This document shows, piece after piece, positions 9,262 to 60,985 of a stretch of 64,000 bases of DNA. Origin of the DNA: Promethearchaeota archaeon (GTDB lineage Archaea; Asgardarchaeota; Lokiarchaeia; Sigyniarchaeales; SOKP01); contig JBHLOC010000008.1 of assembly GCA_048940925.1 (NCBI GenBank), positions 46,428 through 110,427 on the forward strand. The letters run 5' to 3'. Under the pieces are notes generated by a model. It had not been told where the DNA came from. It was given only the letters and a program-made list of their open reading frames with translations, and did no database searches. A program made the position numbers and the translations under genes. How positions within the stretch are numbered: position 1 is the stretch's first letter; every line of letters starts with the position of its first letter.

Positions 9262-10455
9262 ATGAAATTAACATCTGAAGAACAGGATATGTTAGAGGGC
9301 AAGTATGGAAAAGCTGCTAAAAAATCAATGGAAATTTTAACCACACTGGGGGAAATATTTGATGCAGAGGATATGATCGATATAGTTGGTGTTCAGATAG
9401 CAGGCGTCTCTTATGATAATCTTGGTGAAGCAGGATTAGAATTTTTGAGTGAAATGGCAGAAGATGGTAAAATTCGCGTTTTAACCACCTTAAATCCTGC
9501 TGGAATGGATCGTGAAAATTGGCAAAGGTTAGGTATTGATGAAGAATTTGCCAAAAACCAAAATCGTGCTATAGATGCATTTGCTAAAATGGGTATAATT
9601 ACCACCTGTTCTTGTACTCCATACTTAATTGGAATTAGCCCACATTATGGACAACATCTCGCTTGGGCAGAGAGTAGTGCTGTATGTTATGCAAATTCTG
9701 TTATTGGCGCTCGAACTAATCGTGAAGGAGGGCCAAGCGCATTGGCATCAGCATTAACAGGAAAAACACCTAGATATGGTTATCACTTGGATGAAAATCG
9801 CCACGGGCAAGTTTTAATCAAAGTGAATACTTCTGTTAATGGAACTGATGAATTTGGAGTTCTTGGAAAAATTATTGGTGATAAATTGGGGGAATTAGGC
9901 AAAAAAATTCCCTATATAATTGGAATTCTAGCAGCTACTGTTGAAGAACTTAAGTCCTTTTGTGCATCTGTTGCTACTTATGGTGGAACAGCTTTGTTTC
10001 ATATGGAGGGTATTACTCCCGAGTCTGAAAAATATCCCAAACCAAGTGATACCGTTTTTGAAATAAATCAATCTGATTTAGAAAAAACGCGAACTGAACT
10101 TATTGATGAAGATAGCGAAATTGATTTTGTCAGTATTGGTTGTCCTCACGCCTCAATCCATGAAATCGCAACAATCGCAAATTTATTAGAAGGCAAGAAA
10201 GTAAAGAAAGAATTTTGGATAACTACTGCTCGACCAACAAAGAAAATTGCTGATGAAGCTGGGTATTCCAAAATTATTGAAGAAGCAGGAGCGAAATTTG
10301 CAGCAGATACATGTTGTGTAGTAGCTCCTATTAAAGGACGTTTTAAAGGAATTATGGTAGATTCAGCTAAAGCATGTTATTATGGTCGTGCAAGAAATAA
10401 ATTTAAAGTAAAAATTGGCACAGTTGAAGAATGTGTTGAGGAGGCAACAAAATGA
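9262..10455 (+). CDS. acnX1: Aconitase X large subunit, phosphomevalonate dehydratase large subunit
   Basis: TTLNPAG, CSCTPY, WAESSA, GARTNREGG, IGCPH, DTCCVV and DSAKAC motifs (DUF521). Confidence 0.92.
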   Translation: MKLTSEEQDMLEGKYGKAAKKSMEILTTLGEIFDAEDMIDIVGVQIAGVSYDNLGEAGLEFLSEMAEDGKIRVLTTLNPAGMDRENWQRLGIDEEFAKNQNRAIDAFAKMGIITTCSCTPYLIGISPHYGQHLAWAESSAVCYANSVIGARTNREGGPSALASALTGKTPRYGYHLDENRHGQVLIKVNTSVNGTDEFGVLGKIIGDKLGELGKKIPYIIGILAATVEELKSFCASVATYGGTALFHMEGITPESEKYPKPSDTVFEINQSDLEKTRTELIDEDSEIDFVSIGCPHASIHEIATIANLLEGKKVKKEFWITTARPTKKIADEAGYSKIIEEAGAKFAADTCCVVAPIKGRFKGIMVDSAKACYYGRARNKFKVKIGTVEECVEEATK

Positions 10456-10844
10456 AGTTACAAGGAAGAAAAATATATAATGGAATAGTTGAGGCAGAAG
10501 CTCTAGTAACTAAGGATGGTATTTCATTTTATGGAGGGGTTGATCCTGATACTGGTAAGGTAGTCGAAGTTGGTCATGAACTTGAAGGTCAATCAGTCTC
10601 AGGAAAGGTCTTAGTATTTCCAACCGGTAAAGGTTCCACAGTAGGATCATATACAATGTATCGAATGATGAAAAACAATACTGCACCAGCTGCTATCGTA
10701 AATGAACAAATAGATACCATTATAGCCGTCGGGTGTATAATTAGTGAAATTCCTTGTGTGGACAAAATTAATATTGATGACATAAAAACAGGTCAAAAAC
10801 TCGTTGTCAATGGTTCAGATGGAACAATTGAATTAATAGATTAG
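10452..10844 (+). CDS. acnX2: Aconitase X swivel subunit, phosphomevalonate dehydratase small subunit
   Basis: ISFYGGVDP and GKGSTVGSY motifs (DUF126); ATGA overlap with the large subunit. Confidence 0.92.
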   Translation: MKLQGRKIYNGIVEAEALVTKDGISFYGGVDPDTGKVVEVGHELEGQSVSGKVLVFPTGKGSTVGSYTMYRMMKNNTAPAAIVNEQIDTIIAVGCIISEIPCVDKINIDDIKTGQKLVVNGSDGTIELID

Positions 10845-10860
10845 TTTTATTTTGATATTA

Positions 10861-11871
10861 ATGAAATCTTCTGCAATTGCCCATTCAAATATAGCGTTGA
10901 TAAAATATTGGGGTCATTGGGATAAAGTTTCCCCCGAATTAAATATACCTTTAAATGATAGCGTAAGCATGACAAAATATGGGCTATCAGAAAATACTCA
11001 CTTACAAGCTCATACAACAATTGAATTCTCAGAGAATTTCAAAGAAAATCAGGCAATATTAAATAATAACCTTTTGAAAGGAAGAGATTTAGAAAGAATA
11101 TTAAAAATCATAAATCCATTAAAAAAACTGAAAAAAATTGATTACAATTTTAAAATGGTGAGTTTTAATGATTTTCCCACCCAAGCAGGTCTAGCATCTT
11201 CCGCAGCTGGGTTTGCTGCACTTACCATTGCCACTGCAAAAGCTTTGGATTTGGATCTAGCCCAAAAAGAATTATCAACATTTGCTAGATTAGGTTCTGG
11301 TTCTGCAGCACGCTCAATTCATGGTGGGTTTGTATATTGGCATCGTGGTTTCTCCCATGAGACTTCTTATACTGAGCAGATATGTAGTTCAGAACACTTT
11401 GATATAAATGCAGTTATTGCAATAGTTGATGAAGGAAGAAAGGATGTCACCTCTGACCTTGGACATGAATTAGCAAAGACAAGTATATTTAATGCAATTC
11501 GAGTTAAAAAATCGCATGAAGAAGCTAAAGAAATTAAGAGTGCAATTCTAGACGATGATTTTAAGAAAGTTGGAATGATTGCTGAGAAAAATTGCTTATA
11601 TATGCATGCTGTAATGATGACTTCTGAACCCGCTTTATTTTATTGGAATCCACTTACTTTAAAAGTAATAAAGAAAGTGTTGTATATACGAAAATCAGAA
11701 AAAATAGATTGCTTCTTTACAATCGATGCAGGTCCAAATGTACATTGTTTTTGCAGACCAGAAAATATTGATTGTATTCAAAAAATGCTAGGATCTATAG
11801 AAGGTATTGAAAAAACTATCCTTATAAAACCTGCTAATGATTCTTATCCGACAAATGAACATTTGTTTTAA
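10861..11871 (+). CDS. mvaD: GHMP-family (di)phosphomevalonate decarboxylase
   Basis: NIALIKYWG, GLASSAAG, RLGSGSAARS and TIDAGPNVH motifs. Confidence 0.9.
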   Translation: MKSSAIAHSNIALIKYWGHWDKVSPELNIPLNDSVSMTKYGLSENTHLQAHTTIEFSENFKENQAILNNNLLKGRDLERILKIINPLKKLKKIDYNFKMVSFNDFPTQAGLASSAAGFAALTIATAKALDLDLAQKELSTFARLGSGSAARSIHGGFVYWHRGFSHETSYTEQICSSEHFDINAVIAIVDEGRKDVTSDLGHELAKTSIFNAIRVKKSHEEAKEIKSAILDDDFKKVGMIAEKNCLYMHAVMMTSEPALFYWNPLTLKVIKKVLYIRKSEKIDCFFTIDAGPNVHCFCRPENIDCIQKMLGSIEGIEKTILIKPANDSYPTNEHLF

Positions 11872-12014
11872 AAATATACATAATTAGTATCTCTCTGATC
11901 CAACTGTTCAAATAAAATTAAAAATTATCAAAATAAGTTATAGGTTAAGAAATTTAAATAGATTTGAATATTTTCAAATTTTATCATATCATACAAAATT
12001 AATTGGTGAAAAAT

Positions 12015-12981
12015 TTGGGAACTGGAAAAGGCTTTGGAAAGACCATACTTTTTGGCGAAATTTTATCCCTCTTTCAGGTATAAACGCAAACATTTTGTAG
12101 TGTATGGCTTACCAGCAATTGCTTCAGCATTAAGTTCTTTTACTACAGCTAAAGTAAAAGTTGTTAAAGGAAATGGTTGGGTGGTTGATGATCAAAGACC
12201 TGCTACACCTGGATATAAGGAACAAAAATATAATGATGCTATGCAATCTATTGTAAATGTGATTCAGCATTTAAACATTGATTCGGAGAATCAAAAACTT
12301 GAAATAACTTTTGCTGGTGACTTAATAGCTGCGAGTGGTGTCGGTGCATCGGCAGCTCAATGTACTTCTTTAGCTCGTGCAATAAATAATACTTTTAATC
12401 TAAACCTAAATAATGAAGAGATTAACGAAGCAGCATATGAAGGAGAGAAAGCATATCATGGGACGCCATCAGGAATTGATAATACAGCTTCTACATATGG
12501 TGGTTTGATTTGGTTCATTAAGAATTTAAGCGGTGGAAAGAATAAGATGGATTTACTACAATCACCAAAAAGGATCCCCCTTGTGATCGGGAATACTGGA
12601 ATAACTGCCTCGACTACAGAGGTTGTTTCGGATGTAAGAAGCCAAAAAGAAGAAAATCCAGAAAAGTATGAGAAAATCTTTAATGACTATAAAATATTAG
12701 CAACTAAAGCAAAGGATGCGTTATTAAGGGGTGATATCAATGAGATTGGAAGACTTATGAATCAAAATCATAAATTATTACAAGATATAACCGTATCTGG
12801 AGAATTAAATGATAAATTAGTGGATGTAGCACTTAAAAATGGTGCTGTTGGTGCAAAAATGACTGGAACTGGACGTGGAGGCTTGATAATAGCATTAGCT
12901 GAAAATGAAGAAATACAAGGGCAAATAGCAAATGCAATCAAGAGAGAGGGATATGATGCTTGGGAAACTATGATTGGATGA
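12015..12981 (+). CDS. mvk: Mevalonate kinase, spliced: exons 12015-12059 and 12091-12981 (311 aa)
   Basis: GGTGA SD then TTG start gives MGTGKGFGKTILFGE; removing 31 nt joins it to HFVVYGLPAIA, restoring the GKxILFGEH motif. SGVGASAA, HGTPSGIDN and KMTGTGRGG motifs follow. Confidence 0.9.
12060..12090 (+). other. Putative BHB-type mRNA intron (31 nt) in mvk
   Basis: GGCG AA|A TTTTATCCCTCTTTCAGGTATAAA CGCA AA|C; it shifts the frame and contains an in-frame TAA. Confidence 0.8.
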
Positions 12982-14892: not shown

Positions 14893-16260
14893 GTGAAATT
14901 ATTTATTATTACAAATAACCAAATTGAGGAAATTCAAAAACTAATAAAAATAGAAATTGACTCCTATTACTCCAAATGTAAAAAACCTAATAGTTATTCT
15001 CAGATAGCTAAAGATCTCGGATTTAGCCCTCCGACTATTCGTAAATATGCAAAGAGATATTTAATTAGAGAATATGGAGAAAATGGTGGTTTAGAATTAT
15101 ACAATCAATACAAAAAGTTAAGTCGTAAAACACCAAATAAATGGACTTATGAGTATTTACAGGAATTAGCAAAAAGAAGAGGATTAGAAGAAAATAACAT
15201 TGAAGGAAAGTTAATTACAACTAAAGATGAATTTTTCGAATCTATAAAAAGTCAATATCCAAGTGGTGTTAAGTTAAAATGGTGGTGTGGAAAAAAAAAT
15301 CATGACCCATGGGAAACTTCTGGGAGTGAGGTAAAACGTAGTTGGTGTCCTAGATGTTTTAGAGAAAGAGTGAGCTTTTCATATAGTTATCTACATGCTT
15401 TAGCAAAAAAAAGAGGTTTTGAAGAAACTCGAATCGAAGGGATACTTATTACAAATAGGAAAGAATTCGCAAGACTAATAAAAAAAGGTATCGAGCCAAG
15501 TAAAATAAAATTAAAATGGTGTTGTTGCATAAAAGATCATAATCCTTGGGAAGCTTCAGCTAAAGATATAAAAGGATATAACTCAAGAAAAGGATCTTGG
15601 TGCCCTAGATGTGCTATAGAAAAGAATAGTCTTTCATATGAAGACCTACGAGCTCTAGCCAAGAAAAGGGGCATTGAAGAGACAGGAATAAAAGGAACGC
15701 TTATTACTAGTAAGCAAAAGTTCGAGAAATTAGCAAAAAGAGGTACTGAGCCAAGTAAAACAAAACTAAAGTGGTGGTGCTGTAATAAAGATCATGAACC
15801 ATGGAAAGCTACTCCTAATAGCATAAGCAGAGGGACTTGGTGTCCGTATTGTTCACAAGGTAAGTATGAAAGGATTTGTCGCCGTTTTTTCCAGATAATA
15901 TTTAAAGAGAAATTTCGGAAAATTTCGTTATCAAATTTAATTAAGGATAGCGATATAAAAATGCACTTAGATGGGTATGCTAAAGTAAACATTCATGGTA
16001 AATTGATAAAACTAGCCTTTGAATACAATGGATATCAACATTACATATGGCCCAATGTGTACCATAACACTGTACAAAAATTCCTTGAACAGCAAGACCG
16101 AGATATTCTAAAAAGAAAAATATGTGAAGAAAATGGAATCATTCTAATCGAGTTTCCATATAAGATAAGTCCTAGGATGAAAGAACCTGAAAAAATAAAG
16201 AATTTTATCATTAGTGGATTTGAGAATAAAACAGGTATAAAATTACCAAAATTACAATAA
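14893..16260 (+). CDS. HTH + 3x zinc-ribbon repeat + PD-(D/E)xK endonuclease protein (homing/restriction-endonuclease-like)
   Basis: N-terminal SYSQIAKDLGFSPPTI HTH; three ~80-aa repeats with KWWC..H.PW...WCPxC; C-terminal HLDGY...AFEYNGYQHY. Confidence 0.75.
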   Translation: MKLFIITNNQIEEIQKLIKIEIDSYYSKCKKPNSYSQIAKDLGFSPPTIRKYAKRYLIREYGENGGLELYNQYKKLSRKTPNKWTYEYLQELAKRRGLEENNIEGKLITTKDEFFESIKSQYPSGVKLKWWCGKKNHDPWETSGSEVKRSWCPRCFRERVSFSYSYLHALAKKRGFEETRIEGILITNRKEFARLIKKGIEPSKIKLKWCCCIKDHNPWEASAKDIKGYNSRKGSWCPRCAIEKNSLSYEDLRALAKKRGIEETGIKGTLITSKQKFEKLAKRGTEPSKTKLKWWCCNKDHEPWKATPNSISRGTWCPYCSQGKYERICRRFFQIIFKEKFRKISLSNLIKDSDIKMHLDGYAKVNIHGKLIKLAFEYNGYQHYIWPNVYHNTVQKFLEQQDRDILKRKICEENGIILIEFPYKISPRMKEPEKIKNFIISGFENKTGIKLPKLQ

Positions 16261-60845: not shown

Positions 60846-60985
60846 TGCGGGAAGGGAGATTTGAACTCCCGAACTCCTACGAGAATGGGTTGCAGGTCTT
60901 AAAGTAAAACATTCTGAGCCCATCGCCTGTAATCGGTTTTTAACCATACTTACTACAACCTTTGACCAAACTTGGCAATTCCCGC
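60846..60985 (-). tRNA. tRNA-Leu(CAG) with two introns (60929-60961 in the D-loop/arm; 60890-60911 in the anticodon loop)
   Basis: The mature 85-nt sequence GCGGGAATTGCCAAGTTTGGTCAAAGGCGATGGGCTCAGAACCCATTCTCGTAGGAGTTCGGGAGTTCAAATCTCCCTTCCCGCA folds as a cloverleaf with a long variable arm. Confidence 0.9.

What the first reader, a model, noticed from the sequence alone, without database searches (positions are those of the whole stretch)
12015..12110. Intron splits the GE|H motif of mevalonate kinase, a lipid-synthesis enzyme
Seen: unspliced translation from TTG 12015 stops at TAA 12081. The ORF-track N-terminus (MERPYFLAKF...) is an artefact, and removing 12060-12090 gives GKTILFGE|HFVVYG. 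The BHB is relaxed: 3 bp plus a G-A mismatch in the central helix, like the anticodon intron of the tRNA here, with distal exon pairing CCATAC/GTATGG. Inference: the rest of the gene and operon is intact, so splicing is probably obligatory and could gate flux into isoprenoid lipids.
Basis: partly seen in the sequence, partly recalled or inferred. Interest (0 to 1): 0.85.

Follow-up and report, generated by a model that had tools for sequence, protein, structure and literature searches.

The report
tRNA-type mini-intron in Asgard mevalonate kinase
The only mevalonate kinase gene of this Loki-type Asgard archaeon is broken inside its active-site motif by a 31-base insert shaped like a tRNA intron, so the mRNA very probably has to be cut and rejoined, which the papers I could search confirm inside an archaeal coding sequence for only one other gene (cbf5).

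Summary
Observation confirmed. Bases 12060-12090 split motif 1 (K..GE|H) of the genome's only mevalonate kinase; unspliced reading stops after 22 codons, removal gives 311 aa. Among 111 close orthologs, 62 carry a 28-31-nt insert at exactly this junction, each with a stop; 49 lack it cleanly. The insert forms a relaxed bulge-helix-bulge: three central pairs are never broken in 54 distinct sequences and covary (C-G to U-A), and exon codons are constrained only when it is present. dN/dS is normal (0.135 vs 0.128). A two-subunit EndA and RtcB are encoded; aIF2-gamma and RNase HII are split likewise. Best reading: an obligatory EndA-spliced mRNA intron (0.87). No RNA evidence was obtainable, and this copy's predicted fold favours a competing helix. 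The 'flux gate' idea is unsupported. Added here: near-identical alleles gain or lose the intron together with a foreign 5' gene tract, and an HNH nuclease gene or remnant lies directly upstream in 4 intron-bearing loci, none intronless, suggesting homing-like spread (0.3). The scan found this intron before in other genomes; I found no paper on it.

The parts
12015..12059 (+). mvk exon 1 (15 codons, TTG start; holds the catalytic Lys and the Glu of motif 1)
   Evidence: TTG aligns with ATG of orthologs; maps on Lys18/Glu24 of Leishmania MK
12060..12090 (+). 31-nt BHB-type intron, frameshifting, with in-frame TAA 12081-12083
12091..12981 (+). mvk exon 2 (His of motif 1 to stop; 296 codons)
   Evidence: TIGR00549 215 bits, cut-off 163, profile positions 11-276
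12054..12057 (+). BHB central helix, exon strand (GGCG)
12085..12088 (+). BHB central helix, intron strand (CGCA); outermost pair is a G-A mismatch here, G-U or G-C in 21 of 54 distinct homologs
12058..12060 (+). 5' bulge; predicted cut between 12059 and 12060
   Evidence: BHB geometry; inferred
12089..12091 (+). 3' bulge; predicted cut between 12090 and 12091
   Evidence: BHB geometry; inferred
12061..12084 (+). intron hairpin with 5-nt loop
   Evidence: 7 of 9 pairs show changes on both sides across homologs
12039..12048 (+). distal exon-exon helix, 5' arm
12102..12110 (+). distal exon-exon helix, 3' arm
12005..12009 (+). GGTGA ribosome-binding-like site before the TTG start
   Evidence: sequence; present before 22 of 25 TTG-start intron-bearing orthologs; function inferred
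11953..11960 (+). TATA-like box (TTTAAATA) in the spacer before mvk
   Evidence: sequence, similar in several orthologs; inferred, not tested
12034..12036 (+). false TTG start of the annotated 315-aa ORF (wrong frame over exon 1)
   Evidence: this frame is closed by a stop directly before the His codon in 10 of 55 homologs
10852..11871 (+). MVD-family decarboxylase gene, in the slot between AcnX small subunit and mvk that holds an HNH nuclease gene in some relatives
10452..10844 (+). AcnX small subunit; abuts mvk directly in 48 of 49 intronless orthologs but not here

Best explanation
The 31-nt insert is a tRNA-type pre-mRNA intron. The transcript folds into a relaxed bulge-helix-bulge held by an intron hairpin and a distal exon-exon helix (fold inferred from covariation). 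The cell's two-subunit splicing endonuclease EndA cuts after 12059 and after 12090, and RtcB joins the exons (inferred from motif geometry and presence of the genes). This restores motif 1 of mevalonate kinase; without it only a 22-residue peptide, or a protein lacking the catalytic Lys and Glu, can be made (shown from sequence). The intron is most likely a tolerated passenger kept because it sits in an invariant motif, and it is gained or lost by DNA recombination that swaps the 5' end of the gene (tract exchange shown; direction and driver inferred).
For: 62 of 111 close orthologs have an insert at exactly this junction (55 x 31, 6 x 30, 1 x 28 nt), all with a stop inside; 49 lack it to the base. 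Central pairs 2-4 are paired in 54 of 54 distinct sequences; the Gly codon change GGC to GGT is matched by intron G to A in 4 of 5 cases and is G-U in the fifth; GGT needs 4 changes on the tree. Whole structure 88.8% paired against 37-44% when slid, 8 pairs with two-sided change, 4/500 shuffles. Gly codon is GGC in 50/55 intron-bearing vs 3/35 intronless genes, against 8% GGC elsewhere in the gene; distal helix 8.1 vs 5.2 of 9 pairs; independent-pair sign test median p 0.016. dN/dS 0.135 with intron, 0.128 without; this copy 0.08-0.09. One mvk per genome. EndA subunits of 198 and 200 aa, both over the TIGR00324 cut-off, the first closest to 3p1z/3ajv; RtcB 556 bits. Same genome: 30-nt BHB inserts in the motifs of aIF2-gamma and RNase HII with no intact motif elsewhere. 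Lys18, Glu24, His25 are catalytic or substrate-binding in the closest solved structure (PMC1851959).
Against: In this copy the BHB is about 10% of the predicted ensemble; across homologs median 0.33, above 0.5 in 19 of 55. RNAalifold did not recover the structure. 33 of 54 have a mismatch at the outer central pair and the proximal exon helix is one pair; relaxed BHBs arise easily by chance (bioRxiv 10.64898/2026.10.13.758758). Part of the codon bias may be shared ancestry of the travelling tract rather than selection. An uncharacterised GHMP kinase (143 bits, under cut-off) exists and its substrate is unknown.
Confidence: 0.87

Rival explanations
1. No splicing: the ribosome bypasses or frameshifts over the insert.
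For: The insert is a hairpin with a stop, superficially like recoding signals; 56 of 62 inserts share length mod 3 = 1.
Against: Six 30-nt inserts stay in frame but carry a stop, so no single shift serves all; the stop lies after 16, 18, 19, 20, 21 or 22 codons; the last insert triplet is AAT, TAT, AAA, TAA, TAG, CAA or TAC, never the GAA a hop would need to land on. A frameshift would put about 10 extra residues between Glu and His of motif 1.
Confidence: 0.04
2. The gene is dead or bypassed; another GHMP kinase phosphorylates mevalonate, or the 315-aa or 293-aa internal-start product works.
For: A 315-aa GHMP kinase on C73 scores 143 bits on TIGR00549; 32 of 55 homologs have some in-frame start upstream in the exon-2 frame.
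Against: All full-length intron-bearing genes are intact once spliced, with dN/dS equal to intronless ones; exon 1 is conserved in the spliced frame (pN 0.035); the exon-2 frame is closed directly before His in 10 of 55; the C73 kinase lacks the K..GEH motif, and weak (about 30%) GHMP matches of this kind also occur in intronless genomes.
Confidence: 0.04
3. The intron is real and also a regulatory gate on isoprenoid flux, for example through the switch between the BHB and the competing helix.
For: A competing helix is predicted in this copy and dominates in 17 of 55 homologs; MVK is upstream of both lower routes in the cluster.
Against: The competing pairs are mostly fixed by the protein sequence; 49 orthologs do without the intron; near-identical alleles differ in it; inserts of the same kind sit in unrelated genes.
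Confidence: 0.1
4. Assembly or sequencing artefact.
For: The genome is a metagenome assembly (90 contigs, 8.4% contamination).
Against: 62 sequences from separate assemblies carry divergent, covarying versions at the same site.
Confidence: 0.01

Closest known systems
cbf5 pre-mRNA intron of Desulfurococcales and Sulfolobales (Watanabe 2002; Yoshinari 2006; Yokobori 2009, PMC2738675)
   Same: Short (16-44 nt there, 28-31 here), no ORF, relaxed BHB, interrupts a catalytic motif, patchy gain and loss, two-subunit EndA in the host.
   Different: Other gene, other phylum (Promethearchaeota/Lokiarchaeia by homolog labels); falls between codons, not inside the catalytic Asp codon; one of several such inserts per genome; presence travels with a foreign flanking tract; splicing shown for cbf5, not here.
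HVO_1309 5' UTR intron of Haloferax volcanii (Schwarz 2020, PMC7714728)
   Same: EndA-cut BHB intron in an mRNA.
   Different: 46 nt, in the UTR, does not break a reading frame.
Asgard tRNA introns (bioRxiv 10.64898/2026.10.13.758758)
   Same: Same host group, same motif and enzyme, repeated gains; this window has a tRNA-Leu with two such introns.
   Different: tRNA genes only; 'mRNA' and 'cbf5' do not occur in its main text; it found no general route of arrival.
Collaborative / trans homing of phage group I introns by free-standing endonucleases (review PMC2988022)
   Same: ORF-less intron in a conserved motif, neighbouring free-standing HNH gene in some relatives, co-converted flanks.
   Different: Those introns self-splice and live in phages; here cutting, target site and direction are untested and the nuclease is absent from most loci, including this one.

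Membership tests
Archaeal BHB (EndA-spliced) intron | Two 3-nt bulges with cuts after the second base that give the required junction | tested here: met
   Only register 12060-12090 fits and it restores GE|H
Archaeal BHB (EndA-spliced) intron | Canonical 4-bp central helix plus a flanking helix of 2 bp or more | tested here: not met
   This copy has 3 of 4 (G-A), so relaxed class; 18 of 55 homologs are canonical
Archaeal BHB (EndA-spliced) intron | Relaxed BHB with structure kept by selection | tested here: met
   Pairs 2-4 never broken, compensatory changes in central helix and hairpin
Archaeal BHB (EndA-spliced) intron | BHB is the fold the RNA adopts | tested here: inconclusive
   About 10% of ensemble here, median 0.33 in homologs; RNAalifold failed
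Archaeal BHB (EndA-spliced) intron | Host encodes a two-subunit EndA and a ligase | tested here: met
Archaeal BHB (EndA-spliced) intron | Exon-joined RNA or in vitro cleavage | not testable with these tools
Mevalonate kinase (TIGR00549) | Score over cut-off; motif 1 K..GEH intact after splicing | tested here: met
   215 bits vs 163 for exon 2 alone; intronless ortholog matches 2hfs at E 1.3e-70
Group I / group II / spliceosomal intron | Ribozyme core, or GU-AG ends | tested here: not met
   31 nt; no Rfam match in the window; no GU..AG ends in any of the three registers
Collaborative homing | Free-standing endonuclease gene next to the intron-bearing allele | tested here: inconclusive
   4 of 62 intron-bearing loci, 0 of 49 intronless; upstream DNA short for many; none in this genome
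Collaborative homing | Co-conversion of flanking sequence | tested here: met
   Differences cluster in the first 75 nt in four close pairs, p 4.5e-13, 2.6e-14, 2.1e-7, 3.3e-5
Collaborative homing | Nuclease cuts the intronless allele and spares the intron-bearing one | not testable with these tools
   Needs a cleavage assay

The most novel reading that the evidence does not exclude
Lokiarchaeia routinely splice mRNAs of essential genes with the tRNA machinery, and these ORF-less, protein-spliced mini-introns spread by collaborative homing: a free-standing double-HNH nuclease gene parked upstream cuts the intronless mvk allele, and repair copies in the intron, a new 5' gene end and cargo such as the MVD decarboxylase gene.
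Probability: 0.3. Interest if true: 0.88.

Novelty: new member of a known kind. Interest (0 to 1): 0.72.

Why it matters
Archaeal pre-mRNA splicing inside a coding sequence is confirmed only for cbf5 in the papers I could read (PMC2738675, PMC7714728). An obligatory intron in a sole-copy lipid enzyme, in the archaeal group closest to eukaryotes and alongside several others in the same genome, would make EndA an mRNA-processing enzyme there and give a simple test system for how introns enter and persist in essential genes. It also exposes a systematic annotation error: public databases hold dozens of 293-319-aa 'mevalonate kinases' with a false or missing N-terminus. The tract-exchange and HNH pattern offers a testable answer to how BHB introns arrive, a question the 2026 Asgard tRNA preprint leaves open.

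Tried and rejected
The spliced junction with intron-type flanks was not found in JGI contigs. Three intronless proteins 97-98% identical to intron-bearing ones (P0010, P0029, P0040) were fetched as possible cDNA; they have intronless-type flanks, so they are alleles (or chimeric contigs), not spliced transcripts. RNAalifold gave no BHB. A covariance model of the intron with its flanks found only this locus in the genome (next hit E 1.5), and BLAST found no other copy of the insert: not a repeat, MITE or CRISPR unit, and no donor found. L039 (119-nt 'insert') is a duplication of exon 1, left out; L038 duplicates L023. Loss through reverse-transcribed mRNA was considered: it would leave intron-type flanks, but none of 49 intronless genes has both GGC and 8 or more distal pairs. 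My motif scan found no purA motif, intact or split, and an intact rpoN and EF-2 motif, so those earlier leads are not confirmed here. Other members of the HNH family sit between many housekeeping genes, with no split neighbour visible within 1.5 kb. The careful protein tree did not finish; quick trees were used. Bacterial promoter scan was at chance level. Paper searches found nothing on an mvk intron; the library lacks most subscription journals.

Full report
Observation. The coordinates are right. From TTG 12015 the frame runs 15 codons to GAA 12057-12059, enters the insert and stops at TAA 12081 (22 aa). Removing 12060-12090 gives a 311-aa open frame. Exon 2 alone scores 215 bits on TIGR00549 (cut-off 163) from profile position 11. 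The gene lies in a mevalonate cluster: HMG-CoA reductase, UbiD, AcnX large and small, an MVD-family decarboxylase, mvk, with UbiX nearby. Named homologs are mostly labelled Promethearchaeota or Lokiarchaeota, so the host is a Loki-type Asgard archaeon (inferred). An intronless ortholog matches Leishmania MK (2hfs, E 1.3e-70); there Lys18 is catalytic and Glu24 and His25 are strictly conserved (PMC1851959). Exon 1 carries the Lys and Glu, exon 2 starts at the His. The 315-aa ORF from 12034 lacks both exon-1 residues.

Second copy. Only this locus passes the TIGR00549 cut-off in a genome rated 100% complete. The next GHMP kinase (C73, 143 bits) lacks K..GEH; the others look like galactokinase or sugar kinases. 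Across 135 genomes of the family there is one match per genome at E 1e-30, apart from one gene split over two contigs.

Relatives. Of 111 close orthologs (genomes plus metagenome contigs, not independent), 62 have an insert at exactly this junction: 55 of 31 nt, 6 of 30, 1 of 28. All 62 have a stop inside it; 49 lack it to the base. Spliced genes are intact, 310-311 aa. dN/dS is 0.135 among intron-bearing and 0.128 among intronless pairs, 0.08-0.09 for this copy. This excludes an artefact and makes a pseudogene very unlikely. Mixed lengths, varying stop positions and no matching landing codon argue against frameshifting or hopping.

Structure. Of three equivalent deletions only 12060-12090 fits BHB geometry: 3 central pairs plus G-A, a 3-bp inner helix, one proximal exon pair. 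0.4% of local 31-nt boundaries meet that rule. On 54 distinct homologs the three inner central pairs are never broken; C-G becomes U-A in four and U-G in one; the outer pair is G-U or G-C in 21 and a mismatch in 33; 7 of 9 hairpin pairs change on both sides; 88.8% of cells pair, against 37-44% when slid. Exon codons follow the intron: GGC in 50/55 vs 3/35 (8% elsewhere in the gene), distal helix 8.1 vs 5.2 of 9 pairs, median p 0.016 on 8 independent pairs. Against this: the window's own copy prefers a competing helix (12055-12061 with 12092-12098), leaving the BHB at about 10%; the homolog median is 0.33; RNAalifold found no BHB. The enzyme would have to capture a minor fold, or the energy model underrates it. 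A 2026 preprint warns that relaxed BHBs are common by chance, so the weight rests on covariation, not on the motif match.

Machinery. The genome encodes two EndA subunits over the TIGR00324 cut-off and RtcB. The 198-aa subunit is closest to 3p1z/3ajv and aligns through the N-terminal loop and the catalytic Tyr, His and Lys; that these entries are the Aeropyrum enzyme with the broad-specificity loop is from my own knowledge. The window's tRNA-Leu(CAG) has a canonical 33-nt D-arm intron and a 22-nt anticodon intron with 3 of 4 pairs (U-C mismatch), so relaxed sites in a gene that must be spliced exist here. A motif scan confirmed 30-nt BHB inserts in aIF2-gamma (C68) and RNase HII (C40), with no intact motif elsewhere.

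How it moves. Presence is patchy: 17-21 changes on trees of the gene body, at least 8 forced by starred branches, but 2 changes on a tree of the first 75 nt, against 17-25 for control windows. In four close pairs that differ in the intron, differences pile up at the 5' end: 16 of 23, 23 of 44, 16 of 45, 18 of 77 in the first 75 of 930 nt (p 4.5e-13 to 3.3e-5). In the three pairs examined, each tract resembles distant alleles of the same intron state. So the intron comes and goes with a recombined 5' tract, not by clean cDNA replacement. In one trio (L044, L045, L139) the pattern reads as loss; others are undecided. Three pairs rest on metagenome contigs that could be chimeric; one rests on separate genomes. 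Selection on the fold and shared tract ancestry both contribute to the codon bias and cannot be fully separated here.

Neighbourhood. 48 of 49 intronless genes abut the AcnX small subunit directly; 35 of 62 intron-bearing genes are separated from it by an inserted segment with its own leader (independent pairs, median p 0.03, range to 0.22). The segment often holds the MVD gene, as in this window. In four intron-bearing loci it holds a 425-583-aa double-HNH nuclease gene or its decayed tail (L145, L154, L146, L126; PHROG HNH E 1e-14). That family occurs in 52 of 135 genomes between many housekeeping genes and was not found in this genome. This fits collaborative homing as described for phage introns (PMC2988022), but cutting, target and direction are untested.

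Mechanism and odds. Shown: interruption, conservation, covariation, sole copy, purifying selection, machinery, tract exchange. Inferred: folding into the BHB, cutting by EndA, ligation by RtcB (0.87). A regulatory gate is unlikely (0.1). No RNA evidence could be obtained.

Comparison. It works like the cbf5 intron (16-44 nt, relaxed BHB, catalytic site, gain and loss; PMC2738675). As of 2020 cbf5 and a Haloferax 5' UTR intron were the only archaeal mRNA cases (PMC7714728). It fails the canonical-BHB test but meets the relaxed one, which many cbf5 introns also use; the defining experiment is missing. I file it as a probable new member of that very small kind. The scan noted the same mvk intron in other genomes and more inserts in this genome; those notes are not used as evidence.

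Noticed in passing
window 60846-60985 (-): tRNA-Leu(CAG) with two introns (60961-60929, 33 nt, canonical; 60911-60890, 22 nt, relaxed); missed by the tRNA tool and Rfam, miscalled Leu(aag) by ARAGORN with introns on.
   Followed up: yes
G000 C68 and C40: 30-nt BHB inserts split the P-loop of aIF2-gamma and the DEAGRG motif of RNase HII; no intact motif elsewhere.
   Followed up: partly
L145:3472-4749; L154:2096-3847: Double-HNH zinc-finger nuclease family, free-standing between housekeeping genes in 52 of 135 genomes of the family, sometimes inside much longer frames; no Pfam hit over cut-off.
   Followed up: partly
window 10452-11871: MVD-family gene sits between AcnX small subunit and mvk only in intron-bearing loci among those examined, and the AcnX small C-terminus differs there; truncated MVD remnants in L148 and L159.
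   Followed up: partly
window 14893-16260: 455-aa HTH plus repeated zinc-finger, nuclease-like ORF inside the lipid cluster, one paralog on C54; unrelated by BLAST to the HNH family above.
   Followed up: partly
The family holds two mvk types, one per genome; the intron-bearing type is much closer to Leishmania MK (E 1e-70) than to other solved MKs and has relatives labelled Iainarchaeum and Bathyarchaeia.
   Followed up: no
L058, L060, L061, L063, L067, L070, L073, L050, L068: mvk has ACG at the codon where orthologs start with ATG, directly after the upstream stop: possible non-standard start or a start a few codons away.
   Followed up: no
L039:1358-1500: Partial tandem duplication of mvk exon-1-like sequence in an Iainarchaeum contig.
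   Followed up: no
Dozens of public mevalonate kinase entries of 293-319 aa have a false or missing N-terminus because of this insert.
   Followed up: yes
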